IMG/VR virus record: IMGVR_UViG_3300024252_000005
Source of the DNA: a virus
Taxonomy: Duplodnaviria > Caudoviricetes
DNA: 64,000 bases
Direction: 5' to 3' (one strand)
A program made the translations under genes and the position numbers. Shown piece after piece: positions 19,078 through 34,805 of the stretch (position 1 is the first letter of the stretch; each line of letters begins with the position of its first letter). The notes beneath the pieces were generated by a model, which did not search any database, was not told the DNA's origin, and was given only the letters and a program-made list of their open reading frames with translations.

Positions 19078-19506
19078 ATGGCAAAAGTAAGCAGAAGTAT
19101 GCTTAAGGGCATTGTAAAAGAGTGCCTTGTTGAGCTTTTAGCAGAAGGTTTATCTGGTGGCGACACAAGAGAGTTAAACGAAAGCATGGGAAATAGTATT
19201 CCTACTTTTAAAAACTCTGTTAAGCGTACACAAAAGCAGGCAGCTAAAAAAGTTGTTAATGAAAGCTTTGAAGAAAACACAAGAAAAGTTATATCAAATG
19301 TAACAAGTGATCCAGTGATGGCATCTTTATTAGAAGACACAGCAAATACAACGTTGCAAGAGCAAAATAGTGCAGATTCATCTAATAGGTTTGCGGCGAA
19401 GGCAACTGACTCTTATAGTCGCGCTGTTGATAGTAGTGATCCTGTTGAGTTATTTGGTGAAGCTTCAAATAATTGGGCAGCATTAGCTTTTTCAGGTAAT
19501 AAATAA
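19078..19506 (+). CDS. Putative prohead core/internal protein
   Basis: 142 aa; N-terminal amphipathic LKGIVKECLVELLAE; located in the head module. Confidence 0.55.
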   Translation: MAKVSRSMLKGIVKECLVELLAEGLSGGDTRELNESMGNSIPTFKNSVKRTQKQAAKKVVNESFEENTRKVISNVTSDPVMASLLEDTANTTLQEQNSADSSNRFAAKATDSYSRAVDSSDPVELFGEASNNWAALAFSGNK

Positions 19507-19585
19507 AGAAAATAATAAAAATAATGTTTTTAGACATAGTTAGAAATATATTGATTAAACAAGAAACAATTTATGGAGTTTACTT

Positions 19586-19876
19586 ATGTCTAGAAATAGA
19601 GAAAGAATGGTTGAAGTTACACCTTCTACAATTAGAAGACTAGTTAGAGAAGAGCGCGCTCGCTTAAATGAGACCTTAGAGCTCAAAGCTCGTCATCCAT
19701 CAGATGTTGCCAAAAAGACACGTGAAGTTGATGCAACTGCTTATGCAGATACATTAGCAAAGTGTATGGACTATTATCAGATGGCAAAGCTTAAAGAGTC
19801 AAAAATGGTAGAAGAATTAAAAAGACTTCAGGAAGTTAAAAGAGAGCTCAAGAAGAGAATACTTAAAGGTATCTAA
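19586..19876 (+). CDS. Putative prohead core/internal protein
   Basis: 96 aa with GGAG SD; VTPSTIRRLVREERARLNE leader and a C-terminal coiled coil. Confidence 0.6.
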   Translation: MSRNRERMVEVTPSTIRRLVREERARLNETLELKARHPSDVAKKTREVDATAYADTLAKCMDYYQMAKLKESKMVEELKRLQEVKRELKKRILKGI

Positions 19877-19910
19877 TCTTTTTTAATTATAAACAGAAAA
19901 GGAGCATCAC

Positions 19911-20504
19911 ATGGCAGGTTATAATGGCTTAGGACAAGGCGTTTTTACAAATGCAACAACTTTTAATGATCAAATTGGAAGACAAAGAGACAAATACAGC
20001 GCTAAAAACCGCGCAAGAAACGTAGACGAAAATTTAGGTGTTTCTAGAGATACATCAGCTTTATTTCCAAGTTTTGTTGCTCAAGATATATATGACAGAA
20101 GCGTAGAAGAATTTCAAGGTTTAGACTTTTTAGCTGCAGGAGGTAACCCGGACTTTGGGCCTACTGGTGTCAAGCTAGATAATGATGGAACACCTATGTT
20201 TACAAATGTTAATTTACAAATCGATCAGCCTAATAAAAAGGGTCCTAACTTAATAGCACCTGATATTAATAACTTGACTGCACCTACAGCTGAACAAGAA
20301 ACATCTAGCTTTACTAATAGAGGTTTTGGCTGGAAAGATGGTAGAAATGAGTCTGGTACAGAAACTGCTAGAATTGGTGAATATTTTAGCAAGCACTATA
20401 ACGCTACGGGTATTGACCAAAGTATTACTAGACCTAAGTTCGGTGAAGCAAAAGATCCGGGTACACCAGCAAATCCTGATGCAATAAACTACGATCAGCC
20501 TTAA
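19911..20504 (+). CDS. Hypothetical head-module protein
   Basis: 197 aa with AAGGAG SD; Gly/Asn/Pro-rich. Confidence 0.6.
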   Translation: MAGYNGLGQGVFTNATTFNDQIGRQRDKYSAKNRARNVDENLGVSRDTSALFPSFVAQDIYDRSVEEFQGLDFLAAGGNPDFGPTGVKLDNDGTPMFTNVNLQIDQPNKKGPNLIAPDINNLTAPTAEQETSSFTNRGFGWKDGRNESGTETARIGEYFSKHYNATGIDQSITRPKFGEAKDPGTPANPDAINYDQP

Positions 20505-20521
20505 TATAGAGTTTAGCTAAC

Positions 20522-21436
20522 ATGCCAAATGCACCTTATTATAATGGTAATACAAATCCTAATGCAAAGGGCGGTGCATTTGGTTATGATGGAAGAACTG
20601 GGTTAGGAATTGGTTCTCTAACAAAAGGTCCTGCTAGTGGTTTAGGTAGCAATTGGAATATGGGTGATGCTCTTAGCTCACCTAAAGGCCAGTGGGACGA
20701 TACAGAAGAAGACTATGCTGAAAAACAATTTAGGATTACTTCTAAGACAACAGTTAGAGAATTAGCAGCATTTGCTGGTTTATTAGATGAAGAAGACTAC
20801 GATGAGCTTGAAGCAGACATTGAAGGAAAAGCACATTCATCTTTTCATAGAGGTGCTGTAGATAGCTTATCTCATAGAGGAACATCTATAGGTTATATGG
20901 GTGGTATAGGATCTGATATGTCTGCTGTTATCGGTTTATCAGCAGGGAAAAGACTTGATGGTAAGGTTATGTCAGAAAAAAGAATTAAACAGTATATAAA
21001 ACAAGTTCTTTTAAATGAATTTCAAATGAGTGGAAGAATTGCTAGTATGTCTTCACCCAAAGCAAAGAATACTGGGGGAAAAAGAAGAAGTGATCCGCTT
21101 AATATAGATAATACTTCTGCTTCAACAAATACATCTGATGCAGCACCTTTAGGTCACTTGCCAACTTCAAGATCTGCTGTTAACCATAGTGGTTATACAA
21201 ATAAAGCTTTGACACCTGATAATCTAGAGCCTTACGTTAAACAAGGCAAAGCAACAACAGATGGTGGTGAAACAACAGGTGTTGAAAATAGAGATTTACA
21301 ATACAGTATATCAGCTGCAATGTTTAATATTGGTGTCAAATCAACTGGAGAAGATTTAGAAGATTCTCTAGAAGACGAGCATATCGATCAGAGAAATGTT
21401 GATTTGCATAATACAAATTATTATGTTAATTTCTAA
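20522..21436 (+). CDS. Hypothetical head-module protein
   Basis: 304 aa; internal RIKQYIKQVLLNE segment; low-complexity Gly/Ser/Thr. Confidence 0.6.
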   Translation: MPNAPYYNGNTNPNAKGGAFGYDGRTGLGIGSLTKGPASGLGSNWNMGDALSSPKGQWDDTEEDYAEKQFRITSKTTVRELAAFAGLLDEEDYDELEADIEGKAHSSFHRGAVDSLSHRGTSIGYMGGIGSDMSAVIGLSAGKRLDGKVMSEKRIKQYIKQVLLNEFQMSGRIASMSSPKAKNTGGKRRSDPLNIDNTSASTNTSDAAPLGHLPTSRSAVNHSGYTNKALTPDNLEPYVKQGKATTDGGETTGVENRDLQYSISAAMFNIGVKSTGEDLEDSLEDEHIDQRNVDLHNTNYYVNF

Positions 21437-21491
21437 AAAGCGCTTGTTATTAATATATAGTTAATATAAGAAATTAATTTGTGAGAGTTAT

Positions 21492-22967
21492 ATGAGTAAT
21501 AATTTATACATGGAAGCCATTGAAGCTGCAGAACAACTTAAGTTAGCTGCTGAAGATAAGGCTAAACAACAGATCATAGAATCTATGACACCTCATATCA
21601 AAGCACTTGTTGAGAAGAAGCTTATGTCTGAGTCTGATCAAGATGAGATAACTGATGAGATAACTGACGAAGACACAGATGAGTGTGGAATGATGGCTGG
21701 TCAAGAAGAGATTGTTGATGAAGTAACTTTAGATGAAGATTCAAGAAGGATCTTATCTAAGTTTATTAATAGCAATGCTCAAAGATCAGCTTTACAAGAA
21801 AAAATAGAAGAGCTTCGTGAAGGCTTACGAACTCTAAGAAAAGCTATGTTATTGTCAGAAAATGTTAAAAATTCTTCATCTACAAAGAGAAGAATTAATC
21901 TTCTTTACAAAAATATTATAAAAGAAGCAGTAAATATTAAAAGAAGCAGTATAATTAAAAATGATAAAAGCTTATTAAAAGAATATTTTAAATTAATTAA
22001 GGAGTTAGAAAATATGTCAAGACGACGCTCAAAAAGAAGTAACTATGTAAATGAGTCTCTCGAAGATCTTCTAGAAATGAACCTCTTCGAAGCTGATGAA
22101 GACGATGAAGCTGATGAATCAGAAGAAGAAGTTGAAGCTGATGAAGAAGAAGTAGAGTTTGAAATGCCAGAAGACTTAGACGAAGCACCTGCAGGAGACG
22201 TTTCAGCAGAGACAACTGTAGAAGAGCTAGCAATGATGGCAGGACTCATGGGCGGCTCAGATGAAGTTGCTGAACTCGACCTTGAAGTAGATGAAGACCT
22301 CGAGCCTGAGATGGAAGAAGAAGGCATCTTCGAGATGGATGAAATGGATCAAGAAGTTGAGGGAGATATGTATGAGTCTAGACGTCGTGACAGAGTATTA
22401 GAAATTGATGAAAACATGCTTAGAAGAGAGATTGGTAGAATGAAGGCAATTCGCGAGGGTGAAGCTAAAGATATGGCATCACACTTTGGCGGAGGTTCAT
22501 TAGAAGGTGAAGCATTTGTTGATGGCGTTGAGCTCAACAAGTTGCACGAGATGAGAACTAAAGCTGCAAAGGTTGTGCGCATGAATCGCCAGCTATCAAG
22601 CAAGCTTTCTCAGTACAAAAAGGCACTTCGTGGAATGAAGGGTCAACTTTCGGAGATGAATCTTTTCAATGCGAAGCTTCTTTATGCTAACAAGCTCATG
22701 CAGAACAGAGACCTTTCAATGAAGCAGCAGCGACACATTGTTGAGTCACTTGATGAAGCAAAGACCTTAGGTGAGGCAAAGATTCTTTTCGAGAGCCTTT
22801 CTAAGTCACTTGTAAGCGGTCGTAGAACCCGTAAGGGTGGAAACCTTTCAGAAGGTGCTTTGAGAAGACCAGCTGGTTCTTCTTCAAGACCAGTTCGCAG
22901 TGCACAGCCACTTACCGAATCTGTAGCACTTGATCGTTGGGCAACACTCGCTGGGATCAAGAAGTAA
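21492..22967 (+). CDS. Prohead scaffolding/core protein (T4 gp22-like)
   Basis: Acidic coiled-coil protein immediately before the MCP; many L-x-E sites; C-terminal NAKLLYANKL...ESLDEAKTLGEAKILFESL...DRWATLAGI. Confidence 0.75.
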   Translation: MSNNLYMEAIEAAEQLKLAAEDKAKQQIIESMTPHIKALVEKKLMSESDQDEITDEITDEDTDECGMMAGQEEIVDEVTLDEDSRRILSKFINSNAQRSALQEKIEELREGLRTLRKAMLLSENVKNSSSTKRRINLLYKNIIKEAVNIKRSSIIKNDKSLLKEYFKLIKELENMSRRRSKRSNYVNESLEDLLEMNLFEADEDDEADESEEEVEADEEEVEFEMPEDLDEAPAGDVSAETTVEELAMMAGLMGGSDEVAELDLEVDEDLEPEMEEEGIFEMDEMDQEVEGDMYESRRRDRVLEIDENMLRREIGRMKAIREGEAKDMASHFGGGSLEGEAFVDGVELNKLHEMRTKAAKVVRMNRQLSSKLSQYKKALRGMKGQLSEMNLFNAKLLYANKLMQNRDLSMKQQRHIVESLDEAKTLGEAKILFESLSKSLVSGRRTRKGGNLSEGALRRPAGSSSRPVRSAQPLTESVALDRWATLAGIKK

Positions 22968-23014
22968 GAATTTTTAACACGTTTTAATTAAATTATAAAG
23001 GAATAAAAAAACAT

Positions 23015-24994
23015 ATGAGTTTTACACTTAAAACATTAACAGAAGGTATTAGAGACCGCCACGTGGGCCAGCAGAACAAGCGCCTCGTTGAGAAATGGTC
23101 TCGCACAGGTCTCCTTAGAGGCATGGAAGATGTAAACCGTGAGAACATGGCAACAATGCTTGAGAACCAGGCAGCTCAGGTTCTTCGCGAGAGCAACCTA
23201 ATGAGCAGCGGTGATGTTGGTGGTTTCACAAACATTGCTTTCCCAATCGTTCGTCGTGTTTTTGGTGGTCTTATTGCTAACGAGCTCGTCTCAATCCAGC
23301 CAATGAGCCTCCCAAGCGGTCTCCTTTTCTACCTCGATTATACATACGGTAGTGATGGCAATGGCTATAACTCTGGCGAGTCTGTTTATGGTGGACCAGC
23401 TGGAAAAGCAATTCAAGGCGGCGCTGATGCTACTGGTGGTCAATATGACCTAGTAGGTACCAGTTTTTCTCGAGTACGAATTAAGGCAAAAGACACAAGT
23501 GGTGCAGCTGAGCAAACATTGCCAGTTGATGCGTCAGCACGTCCTAACATTGCCGCGCTAGACGCAAATGAGTTGCATCTTCTTACTACTGAGCTTGGTG
23601 CATCAAACGCAGAAACAGATTCAGCTCTTTCTAGCACAAAATCTTTAAAAGTTACAAGCAGCCACGACTTATCATTAATACAGCATGATCCACAAATTAT
23701 TGACAGAATTAATGCTGGTTCTAATTATATTGCTTTACTTGTTCACCCTAACCTAACTGATACTGATGCACTTGATACTTTGGCGACTAAGCTCGACCCA
23801 GAGTATTTTAGAGAGATTTCTCTGGTAGGCACTTCAGGTACTGATGATAAAGATGTCGGCGATCAATTAGTAGTTCCACCTGATGCAGTACAATCATCAG
23901 CCCACGTTGCGGGTGGCGGTTCAGGTACAAAAGAAGTTGCTTTTAATGTAAAACGTCTGAATCAAATTGGTTCTTACACAAATAACGTCTTTACACCTGA
24001 TCCTTTGGTTGATGTTACCAGCGCAAGTGCAAGAATTTTATTTATTGTAGAAAAAGCAGTAGCTGCAGCAACAGCCCCTGTTAATCTATCAAATATAAAA
24101 ATGTCTTACGTTGAAGTTGACACAGTTGGATTTGCAGGTGGTGAAGCTACTGGAAGTCCTTCATTTGAGAGTAACATGAAACCAGCTGGAGACGAAATTT
24201 CTCCAGTAATCCCAGAGATTGACATCAAGATTGAGTCGATTCCTGTAACTGCACAAACACGTAAGTTACGTGCACGTTGGAGTCCTGAGCTTGCGCAAGA
24301 CCTTAATGCATACCACTCAATGGATGCTGAGGTTGAGCTTACTCAGATTCTTTCTGAGCAAATTGCTCTTGAGATTGACCGTGAGATTCTTGGTGATCTT
24401 CTTAACGGCGCAAAAGGCGCAAACTTCTTCTGGAGTCGTTCACCTGGCAAGTTCGTTAACAAGCGTACTGGTGCAGAGATTGCTCGTACATCATCTCTTA
24501 ACCCTGGGCCAGCTTTCACTGGTACAGTTCGTGAGTGGTATGAGACTCTTACTGAGACAGTTATCGATGTTGCTAACGAGATCCACAGAAAGACACTTCG
24601 TGGTTCTGCGAACTTCATCGTAGTTTCTCCTGACGTTGCAACTATTCTTGAGGCATCTGTACTTTACCGCCCAAGCTATAGCCTTGACGGTGACGGACAG
24701 GTTGGTGCACCATTCACAATGGGTGCAGAGAAGGTTGGTACTCTTTCTAATCGCTTTACCGTTTACAAAGACCCATACTTCCCACGCAACAAGATCCTTG
24801 TTGGTTATAAGGGCGGCTCTTACCTCGAGACTGGCTTCGTATATGCTCCATATGTACCACTCATCGTTACTCCTACAATCTTCCAGCCAGAGGATTTCAC
24901 CCCACGTAAGGGTGTTATGACTCGTTATGGTAAGAAGATGGTACGTGCTGACTTCTATGGTACTGTGACTTGTCTCGACATGAACATCATCTAA
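23015..24994 (+). CDS. Major capsid protein (T4 gp23-like, HK97 fold) with a large insertion domain
   Basis: LVEKWSRTGLL, FPIVRRVFGGLIANELVSIQPMSLPSGLLFYLD, TRKLRARWSPELAQDLNAYH, EIDREI and YAPYVPL...PRKGVMTRYG. Confidence 0.95.
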   Translation: MSFTLKTLTEGIRDRHVGQQNKRLVEKWSRTGLLRGMEDVNRENMATMLENQAAQVLRESNLMSSGDVGGFTNIAFPIVRRVFGGLIANELVSIQPMSLPSGLLFYLDYTYGSDGNGYNSGESVYGGPAGKAIQGGADATGGQYDLVGTSFSRVRIKAKDTSGAAEQTLPVDASARPNIAALDANELHLLTTELGASNAETDSALSSTKSLKVTSSHDLSLIQHDPQIIDRINAGSNYIALLVHPNLTDTDALDTLATKLDPEYFREISLVGTSGTDDKDVGDQLVVPPDAVQSSAHVAGGGSGTKEVAFNVKRLNQIGSYTNNVFTPDPLVDVTSASARILFIVEKAVAAATAPVNLSNIKMSYVEVDTVGFAGGEATGSPSFESNMKPAGDEISPVIPEIDIKIESIPVTAQTRKLRARWSPELAQDLNAYHSMDAEVELTQILSEQIALEIDREILGDLLNGAKGANFFWSRSPGKFVNKRTGAEIARTSSLNPGPAFTGTVREWYETLTETVIDVANEIHRKTLRGSANFIVVSPDVATILEASVLYRPSYSLDGDGQVGAPFTMGAEKVGTLSNRFTVYKDPYFPRNKILVGYKGGSYLETGFVYAPYVPLIVTPTIFQPEDFTPRKGVMTRYGKKMVRADFYGTVTCLDMNII

Positions 24995-25135: not shown

Positions 25136-26518
25136 ATGAAATGTATTATATGTGGATTTGAAGGAACTGGTAAAAAGCTTAGTAATCATTTGCAAAAAGA
25201 GCATAAGATTAGTAGTAAAGACTATACATTAAAGTTTCTATATAAAAACTATAACGGTTGCTTGAATTGCGGCAAAGAAACAAGATACGTCGCATTTACT
25301 TTTAAAAAGTATTGCAAGGATTGTGCTAAACTAGGGATGAAAGAAGGTGGATGTAAAGGTGGTAAAGCTGAAGCATGGAACAAAGGAAAGACAAAGGAAA
25401 CTGACAATAGAATAAAAGGCTTATTAGGTAAAGACAATCCTTTTTGGGGAAAAAGTCATTCTGAAGAAGTTAAGAATAGAATAAGTATGACGAAAAGACT
25501 GGGCGGTATTGATATACTAGAAAGAGTCATGAAAAGAAATGATGCTTTTGAGATATTAACACCTTTAGACAAATATTTCAGTAGACAGCGTCAATATCTA
25601 GACTTTAAATGTAAAAAATGCGACTTTGTATGCAAAAAGACTTTGCAAGCGTTTGAAAGAGGTTCATTATGTCCAAAATGTTATCCTATATCTAAAAGCA
25701 AAGCAGAGCTAGAAGTATATGTTTATGTTAAGAGCTTAGGATTTAACGACGCTGTAAGCGGTGATAGAAACATAATAAAACCTAAGGAAATAGATATAAG
25801 TTTAAAACAGAGTAATTTTGGTATTGAATTTAATGGTCTATATTGGCATAGCGAAGTTATTGATAGGACAACAAAGAATGATCTATTAAACAAGACATTG
25901 CTATGTAAAGAAGTAAACATGAAGTTGATGCACATATTTTCAGACGAATGGGAATTCAAAAGGGATATATGTAAAAGTATGATAAAGAATAGATTAGGCT
26001 TGTCAAATAAAATATGGGCAAGAAAATGTAAAGTTGTTAATCTAGATAAAAAGCAATTTGATAGTTTTATGAATGATAATCATATCAGCGGAAGTGTTAA
26101 TAGTAGTGTTAGACTTGGTTTGATTTATAATGAAGAAATCGTAAGTGTTATAGGATTTAGAAAGCCAAGACAAAAAAAGTGGACTGGTTATTGGGAAATA
26201 AGTAGATTTGCAAACAAGTTAGATTATTCTGTAGTAGGAGGTTTAAGTAAGTTAATTAAAAACTTTTTAAAGAATGAGAGTAACAAGAAAATAATGACTT
26301 ATGCTGATAGAAGATTTGGAGAAGGTTTAGGATATGAAAAGGTTGGGTTTAAGAGTTTTGGTGATAGTGGAATAGATTACTGGTATTCAGATGGAATAAA
26401 TAGATATGATCGATTTACTGTTAAGTCTGACGATAAAATGTCAGAAAAAGAGAAAGCAGCAGAAATGGGTTTATATAAAGTTTGGGGATGCGGAAGCAAT
26501 ATATGGACTATTAATTAA
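25136..26518 (+). CDS. Free-standing homing-endonuclease-like protein (Zn fingers, NUMOD3-like motif, PD-(D/E)XK/Vsr-like nuclease, C-terminal GNAT/Mom-like domain)
   Basis: C2H2 CIIC...HLQKEH; CLNC..CKDC; NPFWGKSHSEEVKNRIS; CKKC..CPKC; EIDISL...GIEFNGLYWHSE; C-terminal NHISG...EISRF...GGLSKL...TYADRRFGEGLGYEKVGF. Confidence 0.75.
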   Translation: MKCIICGFEGTGKKLSNHLQKEHKISSKDYTLKFLYKNYNGCLNCGKETRYVAFTFKKYCKDCAKLGMKEGGCKGGKAEAWNKGKTKETDNRIKGLLGKDNPFWGKSHSEEVKNRISMTKRLGGIDILERVMKRNDAFEILTPLDKYFSRQRQYLDFKCKKCDFVCKKTLQAFERGSLCPKCYPISKSKAELEVYVYVKSLGFNDAVSGDRNIIKPKEIDISLKQSNFGIEFNGLYWHSEVIDRTTKNDLLNKTLLCKEVNMKLMHIFSDEWEFKRDICKSMIKNRLGLSNKIWARKCKVVNLDKKQFDSFMNDNHISGSVNSSVRLGLIYNEEIVSVIGFRKPRQKKWTGYWEISRFANKLDYSVVGGLSKLIKNFLKNESNKKIMTYADRRFGEGLGYEKVGFKSFGDSGIDYWYSDGINRYDRFTVKSDDKMSEKEKAAEMGLYKVWGCGSNIWTIN

Positions 26519-26587
26519 TTAATAATAAAGTAGAGATATATGTAGTTTAGCTATATATTTATATTATAAAACCGCAAAGGAATTAAC

Positions 26588-26980
26588 ATGTATAATAGGA
26601 AAAGTACAAGTGACGTCATCTCTATCTGGAGAGATTATTTAAATGGCAGCAGCGAAAACAAAAGAAGAATAAATGAGGCACCTGAAGACTATTATAGTCC
26701 TGGAGCTGAAGATGTAGACTTTTTCGACGATGAATATGCTCCTAATGAATTTGATCCAGACAATACATCAATAGCAAAAGACCGATCAGAATGTTTAGAA
26801 GCAATAATATCAGATTTAGCTTCTTGTAATCCAAAATGGGAGCAAGACAGAGTTGATGCATTGATTGCTATTCTTGAAGATGAAAACAAAGTATCAGATG
26901 AAGAATTATGCATGATAGCTTATAGTGATCCTGTAGATGATGACTATAATCCTGGCGGGTATGAGTCTGACGACGTATAA
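26588..26980 (+). CDS. Acidic hypothetical protein, candidate internal head protein
   Basis: 130 aa with AAGGA SD and ATATTTATA at 26555; leader ISIWRDYLN...RRINE, then Asp/Glu-rich. Confidence 0.65.
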   Translation: MYNRKSTSDVISIWRDYLNGSSENKRRINEAPEDYYSPGAEDVDFFDDEYAPNEFDPDNTSIAKDRSECLEAIISDLASCNPKWEQDRVDALIAILEDENKVSDEELCMIAYSDPVDDDYNPGGYESDDV

Positions 26981-26991: not shown

Positions 26992-27249
26992 ATGAAAAGT
27001 GACTTAAAACTAATAATGGAAAATTGGAGAAGATTTCTTAAAGAAGATTCTGAAATCTACAGCGACGAAGGTCATGATGATTTCATCGATCCTAGGCATT
27101 ATGATCCTGAGTATGGTGAACCTGAGGGTGTAACTCCAGTAGACCCAGATCTTACTAGTGCACAAGGTGATGAAGATGTCTCGATTGAATATGATAGAGA
27201 TGACAGCATTGATCTTGATGATAGCTTTGAAGATGAAGATTATCGATAA
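26992..27249 (+). CDS. Small acidic protein, candidate internal head protein
   Basis: 85 aa; MKSDLKLIMENWRRFLKE followed by a highly acidic remainder. Confidence 0.65.
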   Translation: MKSDLKLIMENWRRFLKEDSEIYSDEGHDDFIDPRHYDPEYGEPEGVTPVDPDLTSAQGDEDVSIEYDRDDSIDLDDSFEDEDYR

Positions 27250-27629
27250 TGAAAAAGCCTTTATTTTTCGAAAATAGTAAAGTTCCTAAGATATTAAGTA
27301 AGTTATCGCCTATTGAGATATGGGCAATTACATTAGGGCCTCTTGTTTTTTGTGCTGGCGAGATGTCTGAAGAAACAAAAAGACATGAGACGATACATTT
27401 TATGCAATATAAAGAAACTTTCTTTATTGGTTTTATGCTTATATATGTTTTTGATTTTTTATGGGCAGCAATAGCAAAAAAGAAAGGTTTCACGCGTGAG
27501 TCTTATTTATCAATTAGATTTGAGCAAGAAGCTTGGGAATGTGGCAAGCAAGAAGTTTATCTAGAAAAGAGGGAAAAGTTTGCTTGGAAAAAATATCCGC
27601 TAGGGGGTGTAGAAAATGAAAAACCTTAA
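27249..27629 (+). CDS. Small HExxH zinc-metallopeptidase-like protein
   Basis: AITLGPLVF...RHETIHFMQYKE...YLSIRFEQEAW; hydrophobic helix after the HExxH motif. Confidence 0.6.
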   Translation: MKKPLFFENSKVPKILSKLSPIEIWAITLGPLVFCAGEMSEETKRHETIHFMQYKETFFIGFMLIYVFDFLWAAIAKKKGFTRESYLSIRFEQEAWECGKQEVYLEKREKFAWKKYPLGGVENEKP

Positions 27630-27912
27630 AGAATTTATAAAAGAATCAATAGAAGATATGTTAACTTTTAAAGGAGGCATATCATCAGATACTAGCGGTC
27701 ATGTTGATGTAATTGAAAAAGATAGAGTAAAAGCATTAGAGATACTTGCATGCAAACAATTGTTTCCAAATTTAAAAACTAACTCTTTATCATACAAGTA
27801 TCATAAAGTAAGCTCGAAATATCCTGAAGGTGTTATAGTTTCATGTAGTAATTCAAATAAAAAGTACTTAGTAGCTCATCATGGACATATTGTAGACCTT
27901 AATAGGAGATGA
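27616..27912 (+). CDS. Hypothetical protein with a T4-CTS-like N-terminus
   Basis: 98 aa; starts MKNLKEFIKE. Confidence 0.6.
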   Translation: MKNLKEFIKESIEDMLTFKGGISSDTSGHVDVIEKDRVKALEILACKQLFPNLKTNSLSYKYHKVSSKYPEGVIVSCSNSNKKYLVAHHGHIVDLNRR

Positions 27913-28445: not shown

Positions 28446-29561
28446 ATGAACAAGCTTAATGACTATATTAAGCTTTGTCTTGAGACAAGAGCTTATATGT
28501 ATCCCCCTAAAAGAATAGATGCTAAGCTTCAAAATAAACTGTCACCGAAATTAGCAAATGACAAAACTAATCTTTTGCCTGAAGAAGTTGTAAAAGATAT
28601 AGGCGATAAATGGGGTGAAGACTTTGTAATAAGTTTTGTAAGAAGCTATAAAGGAAAAGTTCCTTCTATTGAGATAAATCCTCACGCAAGATTTGCTACA
28701 CCTCATGGAATATATTCGTATTTGCTAACAAGAGAAAACTTGACTGATTTATTTCTTAAGGGTAATTTAGAAGGTGTAGATTTTGCTATGGATAGACCTT
28801 ATTTTCATATTATGAAGATAACAACACAGAACAAAGCATATATTATGCCAGATGGTACTTCTAATATCTATAGTAATAATGATAAACGTGAGTTTATGCA
28901 TGATGTTCAAGAAATGGTAAGGACATCATTAATGTCTCAAGTTGCTAGCAGAAGAGCACCTGATAGGAAGATTAATGAAAAAAACTATACATCAACTTTG
29001 TATAGCGCAGGATATTCTTCTTCTAGAGTAGCAAGAGCAATACATAAAGCATATGATGCTGTTTGCTTAAAAGCGCCTGAAGAAAGCAAAGTTGATTTAA
29101 ACAAGTTTACAGAGAATGCTGCTATATTCTTGGATTTTCTTATAGACAGAAAAGCGAAAAGTACTGTGGAAAAGAAAAGAAGCTATCATAAAGATTATAA
29201 ATCATCTAAAGCAATATTAGATAAAAATACTGGGTATTTATTTTTAAAACTATATAGAATAGCAGATATATTATCTTATATGACACCTAGCCCTAAGCAA
29301 GGATCGGGCAGACATAATGATCCATCTAGACTTTCTTTATTACTTAGAAGTGTCAATATAGAAGCAATAATTGACAAAGGATTTGGATTGCTACACCATC
29401 TTCAGCCAACTCAAGCTGTTGCAATAAATTACGGCGGTGGTGACAAGAAATCCCAATTTAGTTCAATTGAAAACTTAGGTACATATAAAAATATATTCAA
29501 ATATTGTACAGCTGAAGAACTTGAAACTTTATTTGTAGAACACGCAGACTATTTACATTAA
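28446..29561 (+). CDS. Hypothetical 371-aa protein, candidate packaged effector
   Basis: Leader MNKLNDYIKLCLE; conserved-looking core ISFV...IEINPHARFATPHGIYSY; no family recognised. Confidence 0.6.
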   Translation: MNKLNDYIKLCLETRAYMYPPKRIDAKLQNKLSPKLANDKTNLLPEEVVKDIGDKWGEDFVISFVRSYKGKVPSIEINPHARFATPHGIYSYLLTRENLTDLFLKGNLEGVDFAMDRPYFHIMKITTQNKAYIMPDGTSNIYSNNDKREFMHDVQEMVRTSLMSQVASRRAPDRKINEKNYTSTLYSAGYSSSRVARAIHKAYDAVCLKAPEESKVDLNKFTENAAIFLDFLIDRKAKSTVEKKRSYHKDYKSSKAILDKNTGYLFLKLYRIADILSYMTPSPKQGSGRHNDPSRLSLLLRSVNIEAIIDKGFGLLHHLQPTQAVAINYGGGDKKSQFSSIENLGTYKNIFKYCTAEELETLFVEHADYLH

Positions 29562-29566: not shown

Positions 29567-29968
29567 ATGTGGTATATCTACGTTGTTGTATGTTTTGACA
29601 ATTCATTGTATTGTGGTATAACTACAAATCTAGAAAGAAGATTAAAACAGCACAATGGTGAGATCAAAGGAGGCGCTAAGTATACTAGAGGTAGAAGGCC
29701 TTGTCAATTTGTATATACTAAAAAGGCAGCCAATAGATCAGCTGCCTCTAAAGAAGAATGTAAATTCAAAAAGTTAAGCAGGAAAAATAAACTAATATTC
29801 CTACTTAAAAATAATTATGAGCCCATATCAGGTGAAGGTGCGTCTTCAGAAGATTCTTCGCCGGCGGGTACAGGCATATCATCGCAATCTTCACCTTCTT
29901 CAAGTAATTCTGGTTCGCAAGCAGGATCTGTCTCTGGTTGTGGTTCATCACATCCTTCTCCAGCTTGA
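29567..29968 (+). CDS. GIY-YIG nuclease (UPF0213/SLX1-like) with an antisense-overlap C-terminal tail
   Basis: WYIYVVVC...LYCGITTNLERRLKQHNG...GGAKYTRGRRP...ASKEE. The last ~50 codons run antisense to 29815..30294. Confidence 0.8.
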   Translation: MWYIYVVVCFDNSLYCGITTNLERRLKQHNGEIKGGAKYTRGRRPCQFVYTKKAANRSAASKEECKFKKLSRKNKLIFLLKNNYEPISGEGASSEDSSPAGTGISSQSSPSSSNSGSQAGSVSGCGSSHPSPA

Positions 29969-30294
29969 AACTCAGGTGAACAATCTTCAATTTGATCGCC
30001 GGCAACAACTTCACCTGCTGGAAGAACTAAGTCTCCTGCAACTTCTGGCTCATCGCCAGCAGATACCAAATCTCCTGCTACAATTGGCTCTTCACCTGCA
30101 TCAGAAGTTCCTGAAGCAGATTCTTCGCCAGCAGCCTCACCTGCTGATTCTCCTGCCATGGTCTCTCCAGCTTGTACTCCAGAGTCGCTAGCTTGGGGAG
30201 GTTCGTCTACATCTTCATCAGACTCGCAACCAGAACTGAACAAAGACGTGAATACAATTAAAATTGCTAACAAAAAAGATCTAATCTTTAACAT
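29815..30294 (-). CDS. Acidic low-complexity lipoprotein (the only well-supported minus-strand gene)
   Basis: AGGAG SD on the minus strand (30302-30306). Basic N-terminus, hydrophobic core and lipobox-like FSSG-C; AGE/AGD repeats; three further Cys near the C-terminus. Confidence 0.75.
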   Translation of the reverse strand: MLKIRSFLLAILIVFTSLFSSGCESDEDVDEPPQASDSGVQAGETMAGESAGEAAGEESASGTSDAGEEPIVAGDLVSAGDEPEVAGDLVLPAGEVVAGDQIEDCSPEFQAGEGCDEPQPETDPACEPELLEEGEDCDDMPVPAGEESSEDAPSPDMGS

Positions 30295-30313
30295 ATAATT
30301 ACTCCTAGTAATG

Positions 30314-30396: not shown

Positions 30397-30433
30397 ATTG
30401 AAATTATAATTAATTTATGTAAGGAGTAATTAT

Positions 30434-31311: not shown

Positions 31312-31365
31312 TTCGTATGCTTAGACTTAAAAATAATAATTAGATTTAGTAGGAAAGGATTTACA

Positions 31366-31632
31366 ATGGAACCAAATCTTGTGTTATCAATAGGAACAAT
31401 CATGTCAGTCATAGGACTATTTTATTCTTGGCATAAAGACTCAAAGGCCAATGCTCGAGAAGTTGCGCAGCTTACTGCAAGAGTAGATTCTTTAGAAGCT
31501 AGAGCAAAGCAAACAGATGAAGTATTACAAGAGTTATTAAGAGCTACACAAGATATTAAGGTTGCATTAGCTAGAATAGACACAAAGTTGACTAGCTTAG
31601 AGCAGGAATTTAATAGAAGTTTGCAAAATTAA
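31366..31632 (+). CDS. Single-TM coiled-coil protein, holin/XhlA-like candidate
   Basis: 88 aa; N-terminal TM LVLSIGTIMSVIGLFYSW followed by a heptad coiled coil; AAGGA SD. Confidence 0.45.
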   Translation: MEPNLVLSIGTIMSVIGLFYSWHKDSKANAREVAQLTARVDSLEARAKQTDEVLQELLRATQDIKVALARIDTKLTSLEQEFNRSLQN

Positions 31633-31670
31633 GTAATATATAATATTATAGTTATACAAGGAGACTAAAT

Positions 31671-31916
31671 ATGAAGTTGACATCAAAAATGCTAAGAAGA
31701 ATGATTAATGAAGAAATGAATAGAGAGCGATCTATTAAACGTCGACGACGCAGACTTGCTGAAAGCGCTGATCGACCTGTACGTGTAACGCCTCAGTATA
31801 TTAATCGTCTTATTAGAGAAGAGTATGCAGCATTTCAAAAGAAGCAAAGATTAGCTGAATCTCGCCGTAGAAGAGTTGCAAATGCAAGTCGTAGAAGAGC
31901 TTTGTCTAGATATTAA
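31671..31916 (+). CDS. Small Arg-rich protein with an internal duplication, candidate DNA-condensing internal protein
   Basis: 81 aa with AAGGAG SD; KLTSKMLRRMINEE...RRLAES repeats as RVTPQYINRLIREE...QRLAES. Confidence 0.65.
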   Translation: MKLTSKMLRRMINEEMNRERSIKRRRRRLAESADRPVRVTPQYINRLIREEYAAFQKKQRLAESRRRRVANASRRRALSRY

Positions 31917-32011
31917 TTTTTTAAAAAAAGTTATAAAAATATAAGTTAATGCATATATTATTAATCGCATTCGATATCGCATATTAATAAATTATTTCGA
32001 AAGGATTAAAG

Positions 32012-32341
32012 ATGCAATTAGCACCAGAACAAGTTCAATCAATTAATGTTTTACTTTCCGCAGTACAGGTAGCACAGCGTCGTGGCGCTTTTTCTTTGCA
32101 AGATGCACATACATTGCAAGAGGCAATTGATGCTTTGGTACCGCGTGAGGAGCAAGAGAGACAAGCAGCTGCATCACAGGCTGCCGACGCAGAGGGTGGT
32201 GAAGGCGAATCAGCAGTGAGTATGCCTGAGGGTGTAGAGGTAGATGTAGCTGATGGAGATGAAGATTGCTGTGATGATGAAGAATGTGACAGTGATGATG
32301 ATTGTGAGCCGGCTGCAGATTCTGAGCAAGATTTAGTTTAG
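32012..32341 (+). CDS. Small phage protein with an acidic C-terminal tail
   Basis: 109 aa; LLSAVQVAQRRGAFSLQDA helix followed by an Asp/Glu/Cys-rich tail; AAGGA SD. Confidence 0.65.
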   Translation: MQLAPEQVQSINVLLSAVQVAQRRGAFSLQDAHTLQEAIDALVPREEQERQAAASQAADAEGGEGESAVSMPEGVEVDVADGDEDCCDDEECDSDDDCEPAADSEQDLV

Positions 32342-32356
32342 GTAGCGTTAGTATAT

Positions 32357-32374
32357 AAAATATTCGAATATTTT
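32357..32374. promoter_or_regulatory. Perfect 18-bp palindrome, possible operator
   Basis: AAAATATTCGAATATTTT is its own reverse complement. Confidence 0.4.
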
Positions 32375-32375
32375 T

Positions 32376-32402
32376 GGGCGCGTTGTGAAAATGCGCCTTT
32401 TT
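32376..32402 (+). terminator. Rho-independent terminator after 32012..32341
   Basis: GGGCGCGTT-GTGAA-AATGCGCCT: 9-bp stem with G-U pairs, followed by a T run. Confidence 0.65.
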
Positions 32403-32414
32403 AGTAATATATAG

Positions 32415-32498
32415 TTTTAGGCCCGTTGCGAACATAACAGCTGACCCCGCCAGTGCATCGGAATCATGCGGACAAGTTTATCCTAAAAGGAGGAAGTT
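32415..32498 (+). ncRNA. Candidate structured 5' leader RNA (unassigned)
   Basis: 33 of 54 nt in 32420-32473 are G/C, inside an AT-rich genome. TTTTAGG (32415-21) pairs with CCTAAAA (32482-88), which overlaps the AAGGAGG SD. Inner helices GTTG/TAAC and GCAT/ATGC. Confidence 0.4.
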
Positions 32499-32750
32499 AT
32501 GGCAGAAGAAAAGAAAGCTGCACCAAAGCAGAAAAAGAAAGCTGCAGTCTCAAAAAAAGAGGCACCAAAACCAGCGGCTGAAAAAACAGTGTCTAGTAAT
32601 AAACTTAAAGTTGGTACTTTAGTTATTACAAATAGAGAAAAAGAATGTAAAGTACTGGAAGTAGTTAGTGACAATCTTTTTTTGCTTAAAAGAACAGATG
32701 ACACAGGTAAATTATATAGCTTAACCAAAGATCAATTCAATATTAAATAA
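32499..32750 (+). CDS. Small protein with a Lys/Ala-rich N-terminus and an SH3/KOW-like barrel
   Basis: 83 aa with AAGGAGG SD; KKAAPKQKKKAAVSKKEAPKPAAEK followed by LKVGTLVIT...CKVLEVV...FLLKR...LYSL. Confidence 0.6.
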   Translation: MAEEKKAAPKQKKKAAVSKKEAPKPAAEKTVSSNKLKVGTLVITNREKECKVLEVVSDNLFLLKRTDDTGKLYSLTKDQFNIK

Positions 32751-32762
32751 TAAGGAGAAAAA

Positions 32763-33269
32763 ATGCCAAAAGTAATAGTAACAGATTCAAAAGGTCTATA
32801 TCAAGAGACAGGTTCAGGTGTTGATATTCAAAGCACATGTACAATTAGAGCAGCAAAAATACAAAATGTAAATACAGCAAAAAACCTAACTGCAGCTGAT
32901 TGTGGAACAATAATTTTAGGTGCTGCAATAGGCACAGCTCAGGCCGCCGATACAGGATTTAATGTAAATTTGCCGGCTCCAGCAGCAGGTTTAAGTTTTC
33001 ATTTTATTCTTAGACCACCTTCGATAGCAGATAATGCTAATGCAGCAATTACAGTTACAACAACTTCAGACGGAACTACAGCTGCAAACTTAGCTGTGGG
33101 TATGGTTACTGTAAATGAAGTACCAACAAACGTTGTAGGTGTTGTAGACGTTTTAACTTTTGTCCATAACGCAGCAACTTGTGGAGACAATGCAAAATTT
33201 ATTTCTGACGGAACGAACTGGTTCGTTCAGGCAACGGGAGATGCTGCTGGATCTGTTACATTAGCTTAA
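32763..33269 (+). CDS. Probable virion structural protein (beta-rich, Ala/Thr-rich)
   Basis: 168 aa with AAGGAG SD; LTAADCGTIIL...VNLPAPAAGLSFHFI and a terminal FISDGTNWFV, as in phage fibre/decoration modules. Confidence 0.55.
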   Translation: MPKVIVTDSKGLYQETGSGVDIQSTCTIRAAKIQNVNTAKNLTAADCGTIILGAAIGTAQAADTGFNVNLPAPAAGLSFHFILRPPSIADNANAAITVTTTSDGTTAANLAVGMVTVNEVPTNVVGVVDVLTFVHNAATCGDNAKFISDGTNWFVQATGDAAGSVTLA

Positions 33270-33310
33270 TCGTAATAGATTTGATAATAAAAAGTTTCTA
33301 ACGACATTTT

Positions 33311-33351
33311 AAACCTCTGACAGTAACACAAAAAGTATTGCAGAGGTTTTT
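33311..33351 (+). terminator. Rho-independent terminator
   Basis: AAACCTCTG (33311-19) pairs with CAGAGGTTT (33341-49), extended by CAGTA/TATTG after a 1-nt bulge; ends in a T run. Confidence 0.65.
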
Positions 33352-33425
33352 GAGTATATAGAGATTGATAATTTAATTATTTTATAAGTGCTTTTATATT
33401 TATAGACTAAATATAAGAGGATTTT

Positions 33426-34805
33426 ATGAGAAAAGATAGGTTATTAGAGAGTTATATAAGATCTTATCTGATTAAAGAGTCAATAAGCTCTGATGATCAT
33501 GATGACATAGAAGACGCTGTTAGTAGACTTAAAAGAGCACTTTCAAGCAGAGGCATGTCTTTAGAATCTTTAAACTTCACTTCAGAAATGATATGTAATG
33601 TAAGAGATCGAAAACCCGTTAAAGATCTAGGCCAAATCAAAAGAGACAAGCCAGAATCTTGGGAGTTAAGGGATGACAGAGAAGAATCAAAGTCATATGC
33701 AGATATACTCGCTAATAAAAAAGAATTAAATGTCGGACTTGGCTTTAATCCTTTCAATGCTTTAAGTTCAAAGAACAGCTATTACGTAGAAAGAATAGAA
33801 GAGTTTATAAATATATTAGACACTTTTGATAGAAACTTAATGGTAAAAAATAGATCAAATAACATGTCTAATTTTTTGAAAAACGTACTTTTGTTTAAAG
33901 AAGCAGTTGAAGAAGCTGGATTAAAAGTTTTAGGTGCTGGTATATTTAGGATTGCTTTGATCGACCCGTCAAATAAAAGCGTTGTATTAAAGATAGGATT
34001 ATCAGAAAAAGGAAGAAAAGATTGCAAAACTGAGATTGAGCATTCTATGGGAAGGGGTAAAGGAAGAAGACAGCATACAAAGAATTTCCCCACAATATAT
34101 CATTACGACAAAGAAGACTTTTCTTGGTATGCTATTGAAAAAGTTTTATTTATTGATGACGATACTTTTAATAATCCTCCACCTGATTTCTTTACAGATA
34201 TTAAAAGTCAATTTAGAACAACATTTAAATTCTTTAAAAAACTAAAAGCTTCTCTTCCAGCAAATTCAGCACAAAACATTCAGCTAATTGATATATTTGA
34301 AAAGTATATTTCATCTATGTTTAAGTTTGGCAAAGGTGAAATTGATCAAGCACATAAAGAATATGATGAAGAAATAAGCAAACAAAGGAATGGTAAGCTT
34401 GCAAACTTTATTAAAGATTTTATTGAAAAGATTAAAACTATTATTTTTGGTGTAAACTTAAGCAACAAAAAATCAAAATTTAAAGTACCTGAGCAAGAAG
34501 TATATAATAACTTATTTAAGAATCATATGCTGAAATTTGTAGAAAACTTCGCACATGCAGCTACAGAAAACATGTCAAAGCAAAAGAAGATACAAGTATT
34601 TATAAAAATATTAAACAAGTTAGACACAATGTCACAAAGTGAGTTTAATAAGATATCAGGTGAGCTATATAATCTTTTTGATCATGCAATAGTTGCAAAC
34701 TTAAAAGATATTCACTTAGGGAATGTAGGATTTAAAAAAGTCTTAGATGACGAAACTTATGAAGAAAAATGGAAGTTAATTTTCACTGATATTGACTCTA
34801 ATTAA
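33426..34805 (+). CDS. Protein kinase-like (PKL fold) protein with a putative capsid-targeting leader
   Basis: Gly loop VLGAGIFRIA, beta3 Lys VVLKIG, alphaC Glu KTEIE, hinge FPTIY...WYAIEKV, catalytic loop DIHLGNVG and Mg-binding FTDID; leader LESYIRSYLIKE. Confidence 0.75.
   Translation: MRKDRLLESYIRSYLIKESISSDDHDDIEDAVSRLKRALSSRGMSLESLNFTSEMICNVRDRKPVKDLGQIKRDKPESWELRDDREESKSYADILANKKELNVGLGFNPFNALSSKNSYYVERIEEFINILDTFDRNLMVKNRSNNMSNFLKNVLLFKEAVEEAGLKVLGAGIFRIALIDPSNKSVVLKIGLSEKGRKDCKTEIEHSMGRGKGRRQHTKNFPTIYHYDKEDFSWYAIEKVLFIDDDTFNNPPPDFFTDIKSQFRTTFKFFKKLKASLPANSAQNIQLIDIFEKYISSMFKFGKGEIDQAHKEYDEEISKQRNGKLANFIKDFIEKIKTIIFGVNLSNKKSKFKVPEQEVYNNLFKNHMLKFVENFAHAATENMSKQKKIQVFIKILNKLDTMSQSEFNKISGELYNLFDHAIVANLKDIHLGNVGFKKVLDDETYEEKWKLIFTDIDSN

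What the first reader, a model, noticed from the sequence alone, without database searches (positions are those of the whole stretch)
19078..33480. Shared capsid-targeting/protease-cleavage-like leader on about ten unrelated proteins: a candidate packaged-and-injected cargo system
Seen: unrelated ORFs begin with, or contain, a short amphipathic basic helix ending in [LI]-x-E. Examples are 19078 LKGIVKECLVELLAE, 19586 IRRLVREERARLNE, 20522 (internal) IKQYIKQVLLNE, 26588 WRDYLN...RRINE, 26992 LIMENWRRFLKE, 27616 MKNLKEFIKE, 28446 LNDYIKLCLE, 31671 LRRMINEE...RLAE (twice) and 33426 LESYIRSYLIKE. The MCP (LKTLTE) and scaffold carry similar sites. Established: T4 prohead protease gp21 cleaves after L/I-x-E, and T4 internal proteins carry a 10-residue capsid-targeting sequence (MKTYQEFIAE), which 27616 closely resembles. 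Inference: the phage uses a portable leader to load a variable cargo (acidic peptides, an Arg-rich peptide, a kinase, an unknown 371-aa protein) into the head for delivery at infection.
Basis: partly seen in the sequence, partly recalled or inferred. Interest (0 to 1): 0.8.

Follow-up and report, generated by a model that had tools for sequence, protein, structure and literature searches.

The report
Capsid-loading leader tags on phage proteins
An uncultured marine T4-like phage puts short N-terminal helices ending at its head protease's cutting motif on about 18 otherwise unrelated proteins, probably to load them into the capsid as T4 does with its internal proteins; no cutting or packaging has been shown.

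Summary
On the 153-kb contig, 18 genes start with a basic amphipathic helix, most ending in [L/I/V]-x-Glu. Eight of these genes are in the window, and a ninth motif lies inside the gene at 20522. Apart from one kinase-like pair, the proteins behind the leaders are unrelated.

There are at least two leader classes, not one.
- Type 1 reads M-[KR]-I-T-x3-L-[KR]-x-I-I-[KR]-E.
- Type 2 reads L-L-x-x-W-[RK]-x-F-L-x-E.

The phage has a T4 gp21-type protease that keeps the catalytic His and Ser. Its capsid protein has L-R-E|S where T4 gp23 and gp24 are cut.

In IMG/VR, one type-1 variant heads at least 199 distinct small ORFs whose bodies fall into 143 clusters. It is absent from true cellular genomes.

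My reading is a T4-style capsid-targeting propeptide system with many variable cargo genes (confidence about 0.65). Cleavage, packaging and injection are untested. The concept is known from T-even phages, and this scan has reported similar cases, one of them in this genome.

The parts
18087..18689 (+). Prohead protease, T4 gp21 family (Peptidase_S77). Presumed to cut the leaders.
   Evidence: Pfam PF03420, E 4.6e-29. Matches T4 gp21 structure 5JBL, E 1.4e-17. The catalytic His (ELDHP) and Ser (GISSRG) are kept.
17258..18085 (+). Conserved 275-aa head-module protein between portal and protease. It has an internal, lineage-invariant ATIQTLLNEWR motif that resembles the type-2 leader.
   Evidence: Alignment of 25 orthologues. 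The type-2 profile hits it only weakly, at 4.5 bits.
19078..19506 (+). Conserved small head-core protein. A type-1-like N-terminal helix (aa 1-23, MAKVSRSMLKGIVKECLVELLAE|G) is followed by a variable linker and a conserved C-terminal domain.
   Evidence: 42 distinct orthologues. The N-terminal 25 aa are nearly invariant, then conservation collapses. It is a top non-seed hit of the cargo-leader profile.
19586..19876 (+). Conserved 96-aa head-module protein with the type-1 motif after an 11-aa extension (VTPSTIRRLVREERARLNE|T).
   Evidence: 23 orthologues with KLTPxxLRKIVLEEK. The long form of the widespread leader has the same ...EEKARLxE ending.
20984..21019 (+). Internal leader-like helix IKQYIKQVLLNE inside the 304-aa head-module protein 20522-21436. 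A possible internal processing or targeting site.
   Evidence: Conserved at the same alignment position in all 5 orthologues.
21492..22967 (+). Acidic scaffold-like protein with two internal leader-like sites (aa 135-145 and 162-171). Preceded by the ATATATAG upstream element at 21453.
   Evidence: Position before the MCP; alignment of 38 orthologues; motif hits; upstream element. No Pfam or PHROG family matched.
23015..24994 (+). Major capsid protein, gp23 family. N-terminal LKTLTE|G, and AQVLRE|SN aligned with the T4 gp23 and gp24 maturation sites.
   Evidence: Pfam PF07068, E 1.6e-78. Alignment with T4 gp23 and gp24 taken from NC_000866.
26588..26980 (+). Type-2 leader (ISIWRDYLN...RRINE|A) on a very acidic 100-aa body (net charge -26). 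ATATGTAG element 50 nt upstream.
26992..27249 (+). Type-2 leader (MKSDLKLIMENWRRFLKE|D) on an acidic 67-aa body (net charge -24).
   Evidence: Relatives L066, L009 and L017 carry the same leader on other bodies.
27616..27912 (+). Short 10-aa leader MKNLKEFIKE|S, the only one that resembles the T4 CTS MKTYQEFIAE in sequence (6 of 10 identical).
   Evidence: The T4 ipII and ipIII starts were read from the T4 record.
28446..29561 (+). 371-aa cargo protein with leader MNKLNDYIKLCLE|T. Its site is not canonical (P3 = Cys).
   Evidence: Homologues carry different leaders, including a type-2 one. In the AF2 model residues 1-13 have pLDDT below 50, while the body is mostly 85-97. Fold matches are weak.
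31671..31916 (+). Arg-rich 81-aa protein made of two type-1 helices, each followed by RLAE|S. Cutting there would release short, very basic peptides.
   Evidence: Orthologues in L004, L005 and L066.
33426..34805 (+). Kinase-like 459-aa protein with leader MRKDRLLESYIRSYLIKE|S.
   Evidence: The leader is conserved in 20 homologues down to 29% identity. Invariant G170, G172, K189, E203, D428, H430, N433, D455. The model matches APH(2'') kinases, Foldseek E 3e-4 with low TM.
26538..26545 (+). One copy of the upstream element ATAT[AG]TAG, which leader genes share with the scaffold (21453), tail sheath (41445) and tail tube (45925) genes.
   Evidence: 19 copies on the coding strand against 2 on the other. 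Eight of them lie 37-92 nt before a start codon (seven within 50 nt). Sheath and tube were identified by PHROGs.

Best explanation
The leaders are capsid (prohead-core) targeting propeptides of the kind known from phage T4. A short basic amphipathic N-terminal helix gives a protein affinity for the assembling scaffold core, so the shell closes around it. The gp21-type protease then cuts after the Glu of [L/I/V]-x-E. This frees the body inside the head, from where it can leave with the DNA at infection.

The phage uses at least two helix classes. Type 1 is the same helix that heads two small head-core proteins conserved across the lineage (19078 and 19586). Cargo therefore probably enters by imitating a resident core component.

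Shown here: the shared leaders, their strict N-terminal position, the unrelated bodies, the protease with its catalytic residues, the aligned MCP cut site, and leader swapping on homologous bodies.

Inferred: binding to the core, cleavage, packaging and ejection.
For: 1. Gp21-family protease with His and Ser intact, and a gp23-family MCP.

2. The T4 gp23 site LTE|A and the gp24 site LRE|S align with AQVLRE|S, which is conserved in this lineage.

3. Eighteen genes on the contig carry leaders. 16 of 18 end in [LIVM]-x-E and 14 of 18 have S/T/A/G at P1'. The bodies are unrelated.

4. Codons differ between leaders while the peptide is kept.

5. A profile built from cargo leaders alone recovers the N-termini of the conserved head-module families 19078 and 19586. 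33 of its 35 further hits are N-terminal.

6. Homologues of 28446 carry type-1-like, type-2 or short leaders, each ending in Glu.

7. One type-1 variant heads at least 199 distinct ORFs in IMG/VR.
- Their bodies fall into 143 clusters.
- Glu is at residue 14 in 196 of 199.
- In the long form a second [LIVM]xE Glu sits at residue 21 or 22 in 102 of 145.
- Conservation collapses after that point.

8. 16 of 20 large contigs bearing the leader have Peptidase_S77, including 4 of 4 that are at least 90% complete.

9. In 596 Gb of prokaryote genomes the pattern occurs only in 8 stretches, all on marine MAG contigs. At least two of these look like mis-binned jumbo-phage contigs.

10. Leader genes share an upstream element with the scaffold, sheath and tube genes.

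11. AF2 models of 28446 and 33426 show the leader as a low-confidence helix (pLDDT 40-52) ahead of a confidently folded body.

12. T4 precedent: propeptides of 10-19 residues target the internal proteins to the core and are removed by gp21, and T-even internal proteins share only the CTS (PMC9026906 section 2.6; PMC3012670).
Against: - There is no direct evidence of cleavage, virion location or ejection, and no cultured relative or proteome.
- Apart from 27616, the leaders are not similar in sequence to the T4 CTS.
- In the 33426 family conservation runs on past the presumed cut (SIN..DH..IED), so there the boundary is not sharp.
- 28446 (C-L-E) and -54449 (T-I-E) lack a canonical P3.
- One leader gene (73272, HAD-like) lies among nucleotide-metabolism genes on the other strand and lacks the ATAT[AG]TAG element.
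- The timing of the shared upstream element is unknown.
- Type 2 resembles T4 gp23 and gp21 N-termini clearly in only one subfamity and not at profile level.
- Many of the N-terminal profile hits are orthologues, so the p-values overstate independence.
Confidence: 0.65

Rival explanations
1. The helix targets proteins to the prohead core, but only for assembly. The tagged proteins would be auxiliary scaffold or filler components (acidic or basic peptides, small core proteins) that are degraded and expelled like the scaffold, not delivered as effectors.
For: - The same helix heads conserved head-core families.
- Several bodies are short, extremely acidic or Arg-rich and lack a fold, like the acidic tail of T4 gp67.
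- The scaffold itself has internal copies of the motif.
Against: Some bodies are folded enzyme-like proteins: a kinase-like fold, a HAD domain and a well-folded 371-aa protein. The set is hypervariable between relatives, which suits arms-race cargo better than assembly parts.
Confidence: 0.15
2. The leader is a tag for something other than the capsid. It could be a recognition sequence for a modifying enzyme or chaperone, a translational control site, or a homology block that drives cassette shuffling.
For: - Two neighbouring genes outside the window share nearly identical promoter and leader DNA, then diverge.
- In this scan, a shared tag in phage RB43 was assigned to a radical-SAM enzyme rather than to the capsid (note e1-127136, not checked here).
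Against: - Most leaders differ in codon use while the peptide is kept.
- Conservation ends at the protease motif.
- The motif is shared with proteins encoded between the protease and scaffold genes.
- No other candidate partner enzyme was seen beside the arrays.
Confidence: 0.1
3. Chance. Lys/Glu/Ile/Leu-rich N-termini in a 32% GC genome would often look like amphipathic helices ending in [LI]xE.
For: A bare [LI]xE is expected in about a third of 35-residue stretches (my estimate from composition). An unbiased all-against-all comparison of N-termini was only slightly above controls.
Against: - N-terminal enrichment of 11-fold or more.
- 33 of 35 profile hits are N-terminal and none appear in reversed sequences.
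- The leaders are conserved in orthologues at 30-60% identity.
- 199 ORFs in other contigs carry the same leader.
Confidence: 0.03

Closest known systems
T4 / T-even internal proteins (IPI, IPII, IPIII and the polymorphic ip loci) and Alt, with the capsid targeting sequence processed by gp21
   Same: - N-terminal propeptide on otherwise unrelated proteins.
- Ends in [L/I]-x-Glu followed by a small residue.
- The phage has a gp21-family protease and a gp23-family MCP.
- Cargo genes are hypervariable between relatives.
- 27616 starts MKNLKEFIKE, against T4 MKTYQEFIAE.
- Literature: PMC9026906, PMC3012670.
   Different: - The leaders are mostly longer (13-30 aa against 10-19).
- They are basic, fall into at least two sequence classes, and are unrelated in sequence to the T4 CTS.
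- There are far more tagged genes: 18 on this contig and arrays of up to 10 in relatives, against a handful in T4.
- The same helix also heads conserved head-core proteins.
- Nothing has been tested experimentally.
Propeptide-bearing inner-body and ejection proteins of giant phages phiKZ, 201phi2-1 and SPN3US
   Same: Many head proteins are cut after Glu by a diverged gp21-like protease. Large phages with much internal protein (PMC9026906 section 3.2; PMC5694885; PMC10052503).
   Different: - Their motif is S/A-x-E, not L/I/V-x-E.
- Their propeptides are long and are not one short shared tag.
- The MCP and protease here are of the T4 type.
T4 prohead core proteins gp67 and gp68
   Same: Small proteins encoded next to the portal and protease genes. 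Gp67 has an acidic tail. They are processed core components. They are the likely functional counterparts of 19078, 19586, 17258 and 20522 (gene order).
   Different: No detectable sequence similarity: the profile scores of T4 gp67 are about 0 bits. Gene order also differs, since here most of these genes follow the protease.

Membership tests
T4-type capsid-targeting propeptide system (gp21-processed head cargo) | The phage encodes a gp21-family (Peptidase_S77) prohead protease with catalytic His and Ser | tested here: met
   PF03420, E 4.6e-29. Alignment to 5JBL shows ELDHP and GISSRG.
T4-type capsid-targeting propeptide system (gp21-processed head cargo) | A short leader at the extreme N-terminus of proteins that are otherwise unrelated | tested here: met
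   In IMG/VR, 199 ORFs with bodies in 143 clusters.
T4-type capsid-targeting propeptide system (gp21-processed head cargo) | The leader ends in [L/I]-x-Glu followed by a small residue | tested here: met
   16 of 18 leaders on the contig end in [LIVM]-x-E, and 14 of 18 have S/T/A/G at P1'. Glu is at residue 14 in 196 of 199 IMG/VR ORFs. Exceptions: 28446 (C-L-E) and -54449 (T-I-E).
T4-type capsid-targeting propeptide system (gp21-processed head cargo) | The protease uses the same L/I-x-E specificity on the major capsid protein | tested here: inconclusive
   LRE|S aligns with the T4 gp23 and gp24 maturation sites and is conserved. That these sites are cut is known for T4 only.
T4-type capsid-targeting propeptide system (gp21-processed head cargo) | Sequence similarity to the T4 CTS (MKTYQEFIAE) | tested here: not met
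   Only 27616 is similar (6 of 10 residues). Type-1 and type-2 leaders are not. Homology of the tag itself therefore cannot be claimed; the similarity is in how it works.
T4-type capsid-targeting propeptide system (gp21-processed head cargo) | Expression together with the head genes | tested here: inconclusive
   The scaffold, sheath and tube genes and five leader genes share the upstream element ATAT[AG]TAG. Timing was not measured.
T4-type capsid-targeting propeptide system (gp21-processed head cargo) | The mature protein is present in virions with the leader removed, and is ejected into the host | not testable with these tools
   No cultured relative in GenBank phages.
phiKZ-like processed inner-body / ejection proteins | Cleavage motif S/A-x-E | tested here: not met
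   P3 is L, I or V in most leaders.

The most novel reading that the evidence does not exclude
Capsid loading in this large marine lineage of T4-like jumbo phages works by mimicry of resident core proteins. Any protein that acquires the 14-22-residue N-terminal helix of the conserved small core proteins (19078 and 19586 families) would be co-assembled into the prohead and released by the protease. The Trp-containing type-2 helix may work the same way; its resemblance to the N-termini of the protease and the MCP delta domain is only a weak lead. This would give these phages an open, exchangeable repertoire of hundreds of injected effector families. The repertoire would include kinase-like enzymes, DNA-mimic-like acidic peptides and protamine-like basic peptides.
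Probability: 0.35. Interest if true: 0.75.

Novelty: new variant of a known kind. Interest (0 to 1): 0.6.

Why it matters
If the leaders are packaging tags, they mark which of the many unknown genes in abundant marine jumbo phages encode proteins delivered with the DNA. Such proteins act against host defences before any phage gene is expressed.

It would also show that T4's capsid-targeting principle is old and general among T4-like phages, used here at a much larger scale and with different tag sequences. It would provide short natural tags for loading foreign proteins into other phage capsids.

It makes a simple rule testable: conserved helix, then [L/I/V]-x-Glu, then a variable body.

Tried and rejected
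It found only the Trp subtype outside the window.
- An HMM built from six near-identical cluster leaders was too narrow and found only its own seeds.
- An unbiased all-against-all comparison of N-terminal 30-mers was only slightly above internal, C-terminal and shuffled controls. K/N-rich composition and paralogue families swamp it.
- Pfam and PHROGs gave nothing for most leader proteins.
- Complex prediction of the scaffold (A2) with the 19078 family (A3) returned "no answer", score 0.00. This is neither for nor against binding.
- tblastn of own leaders and of a consensus-leader protein against GenBank phages found nothing relevant.
- No paper in the library holds the leader strings.
- The idea that type-2 leaders copy the N-termini of the MCP delta domain and the protease (T4 gp23 AELLNKWKPLLEGE, T4 gp21 QLLIETW, own RLITEWVNF and RLVEKWSRTGLL) is kept as a lead only. 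The type-2 profile scores these at about 0 bits, and only one subfamily (L004, L005) is clearly similar to T4 gp23.
- The fold of 28446 remains unassigned. Its best PDB match is the cyanophage A4 pre-ejectosome chain 9k3a_B (Z 5.5, rmsd 6.4, 177 aligned). PARP-type ART domains score Z 3.1-3.5. All are too weak to assign a fold.
Full report
**What the window is.** The window is part of a 153,118-bp virus record (one search names it a virus record) with about 32% GC. Nearly all genes lie on one strand. The head module reads as follows:
- portal, with an intein-like insert (14112-17258)
- a 275-aa protein (17258)
- a Peptidase_S77 prohead protease (18087-18689; Pfam E 4.6e-29)
- five small or medium ORFs (18689, 19078, 19586, 19911, 20522)
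- an acidic scaffold-like protein (21492)
- a gp23-family major capsid protein (23015; E 1.6e-78)

The tail sheath (41486) and tail tube (45963) lie downstream. The nearest named capsid proteins are only 47-53% identical: an uncultured huge phage and the Flavobacterium phage immuto. About 600 IMG/VR stretches encode a relative, and the 80 loci kept are 56-80% identical. This is a distant, uncultured T4-like lineage. Complete relatives are about 280-293 kb, so the record is probably a fragment. Notes from this scan refer to positions beyond it.

A bare [LI]xE has no weight. The extended helix does. My own ORF call of the whole contig showed ten more genes with such leaders outside the window. 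Eight of them are adjacent, 54-60 kb upstream of the window, and start MRITExKLRxLIRxVIxE or a variant. Two more start with Trp-containing variants.

Further tests:
- The pattern h-[KRN]-x-h-h-[KRN]...[LIVMC]-x-E is 11 times more frequent per position in the first 25 residues than elsewhere. Four of its 12 internal hits lie in head-module proteins: 17258, 20522 and the scaffold twice.
- After the first 25 residues are removed, the 22 proteins compared (the leader-bearing proteins plus several head-module proteins) share nothing in BLASTP. The exception is 33426 with one cluster gene, E 5e-4; both are kinase-like.
- The leaders use different codons for the same residues, so selection acts on the peptide. 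Two neighbouring cluster genes share nearly identical promoter-plus-leader DNA, which points to a recent cassette duplication.

**Two classes, and a link to conserved head proteins.** In the 80 related loci the same leaders recur on other bodies.
- Type 1 is M-[KR]-[IL]-[TS]-x3-L-[KR]-x-[IL]-[IV]-x-E. Aromatic variants such as LRSFIRHVLQE are the form seen in 33426 and in the internal site of 20522; 28446 carries a looser version.
- Type 2 is [LI]-[LIM]-x-x-W-[RK]-x-[FY]-L-x-E.

- The 19078 family (42 distinct orthologues) has a nearly invariant LKxIVKECLVEILxEG start, then a variable linker and a conserved C-terminal domain.
- The 19586 family (23 sequences) has KLTPxxLRKIVLEEK.

A profile built only from variable-cargo type-1 leaders recovers exactly these two families as its main further hits, together with new cargo leaders. 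33 of 35 non-redundant hits of at least 6 bits begin within the first 20 residues, which make up 7% of positions. Reversed sequences give no hit. Many of these hits are orthologues, so the binomial p-value overstates independence.

The internal helix of 20522 is conserved in its five orthologues.

**Link to the protease.**
- The protease keeps the catalytic His and Ser of T4 gp21.
- I aligned the capsid protein with T4 gp23 and gp24 taken from the T4 record. The T4 maturation sites LTE|A and LRE|S fall on AQVLRE|S, which is conserved in the lineage. That T4 is cut there is established knowledge (PMC9026906, figure 3 legend).
- On the contig, 16 of 18 leaders end in [LIVM]-x-E, and 14 of 18 have S, T, A or G next.

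**How widespread the leader is.** It often forms arrays of up to 10 genes. It heads 199 distinct complete ORFs with a median length of 100 aa, whose bodies fall into 143 BLAST clusters, 109 of them singletons.

The residues beyond the searched pattern are informative:
- Residue 14 is Glu in 196 of 199.
- In the short form it is followed by Ala or Ser (42 of 54).
- In the long form ...EEKARLxE follows, with a second [LIVM]xE Glu at residue 21 or 22 in 102 of 145. About 20% would be expected by chance anywhere in that stretch.
- Conservation then collapses into Gly, Pro, Asp and Ser.

This is the profile expected of a removable propeptide, and the long form matches the 19586 family.

Two further points:
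- 16 of 20 large leader-bearing contigs hold Peptidase_S77, including all four that are at least 90% complete. The four without it are 4-50% complete.
- In 596 Gb of prokaryote genomes the pattern occurs in only eight stretches. All are on marine MAG contigs. At least two look like mis-binned jumbo phages: a 306-kb contig with 11 copies, and a contig of the same length as an IMG/VR virus record.

**Modularity.** Homologues of 28446 (34 proteins) carry several different leaders on the same body. Each ends in Glu before a small residue:
- MNKLxxYIxLYLE|T
- MLKEYIxLIVE|A
- MLENYIKQYIKLLSE|S
- MNIDLLKTFIKE|A
- in one case a type-2 leader, MESVKVLLETWRRYDQGLNE|S

The interval between the capsid and neck genes ranges from 0.7 to 9.9 kb in 39 related loci and often holds leader genes. 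This window has the largest interval. AF2 models of 28446 and 33426 show the leader as a helix of low confidence (pLDDT 40-52) ahead of a confident body.

**Expression.** The element ATAT[AG]TAG occurs 19 times on the coding strand and twice on the other. It lies 37-50 nt before the start of the scaffold, sheath and tube genes and of leader genes -59588, -58744, -57491 and 26588. Gene -60415 has a near match found by the matrix. This suggests co-regulation with structural genes. Timing was not measured.

**The cargo.**
- 26588, 26992 and -54449 have extremely acidic bodies (net charge -24 to -33).
- 31671 is two type-1 helices, each followed by RLAE|S, and would yield short Arg-rich peptides.
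- 33426 is kinase-like. It has an invariant Gly-rich loop, Lys, a D-x-H-x-x-N loop and TDID. Foldseek matches APH(2'') at E 3e-4, with low TM.
- 73272 has a HAD domain.
- 28446 is well folded but unassigned. Its weak matches are to a cyanophage pre-ejectosome chain and to PARP-type ART domains.

**Interpretation.** The best reading is a T4-style capsid-targeting propeptide system. In T4, propeptides of 10-19 residues give the internal proteins affinity for the core and are removed by gp21. T-even internal proteins share only this tag (PMC9026906 section 2.6; PMC3012670). Searches confirm that two genes in the T4 record start MKTYQEFIAE.

This case differs in several ways:
- The tags are unrelated in sequence to the T4 tag, except in 27616.
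- They are longer and basic, and come in at least two classes.
- They head far more genes.
- Type 1 is the N-terminal helix of conserved small head-core proteins, which suggests entry by mimicry.

The idea that type 2 copies the N-termini of the protease and the capsid delta domain is only a lead.

The rival readings are an assembly-only role, a tag for some other process, and chance. They are weighed in their own sections. Chance is excluded. The first two cannot be excluded without proteomics.

**Novelty and standing.** The principle is textbook for T-even phages, and reviews have suggested that it is an evolutionary route to varied cargo (PMC9026906). I found no paper that describes these leaders.

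This scan has reported the same kind of system before, both on other DNA and in this genome. It reported the upstream cluster (notes e1-5410820 and e1-5410811) and similar tags in other marine T4-like phages (e1-5376900, e1-3862018, e1-4036318, e1-5358537).

I therefore rate this a new variant of a known kind, of moderate to good interest. The open step is experimental.

Noticed in passing
window 14112-17258: The portal ORF is 1048 aa, against 640-680 aa in relatives. It contains CIAGDTLI...VHNT, which looks like an intein with an endonuclease-like insert.
   Followed up: no
window 27249-27629: This 126-aa protein has an HETIH (HExxH) motif and no Pfam hit. In relatives L004 and L066 it is conserved between a type-2-leader acidic gene and a glyoxalase/VOC gene (27914). 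It may be a small metalloprotease.
   Followed up: no
window 22935-22967 and 19465-19506: The scaffold C-terminus DRWATLAGIKK and the C-terminus of the 19078 family, NNWAALAFSGNK, share [DN]-x-W-A-x-L-A-[GF]. Both are conserved in the lineage. This may be a common shell-binding motif.
   Followed up: partly
window 25136-26518 and 29567-29968: NUMOD3-containing and GIY-YIG endonuclease-like genes sit in the variable island between the capsid and neck genes. That island ranges from 0.7 to 9.9 kb among 39 related loci.
   Followed up: partly
window 21453, 26538, 32407, 41445, 45925 and upstream cluster: A strand-specific upstream element ATAT[AG]TAG[AT]T lies 37-50 nt before the start codons of the scaffold, sheath and tube genes and several leader genes (92 nt before the start of 32499, from the copy at 32407). 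It is a candidate promoter of one temporal class.
   Followed up: partly
L207, L211, L212 (NHDW01000006.1) and L208, L210 (PBIO01000025.1): Contigs filed under bacterial MAGs (Methylococcaceae TMED69, 306 kb; Halobacteriovorax SP2999, 101 kb) carry arrays of the phage leader. They are probably mis-binned jumbo-phage contigs.
   Followed up: no
window 28446-29561: The best structural match of the 371-aa cargo model is an internal pre-ejectosome protein of cyanophage A4 (9k3a_B; Z 5.5, rmsd 6.4, 177 aligned). PARP-type ART domains score Z 3.1-3.5. These fit the theme but are too weak to use.
   Followed up: partly
window 29815-30294 (minus strand): A 159-aa ORF on the opposite strand has a lipoprotein-like start (MLKIRSFLLAILIVFTSLFSSGC) and an acidic body. 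It overlaps the low-complexity tail of the GIY-YIG ORF.
   Followed up: no
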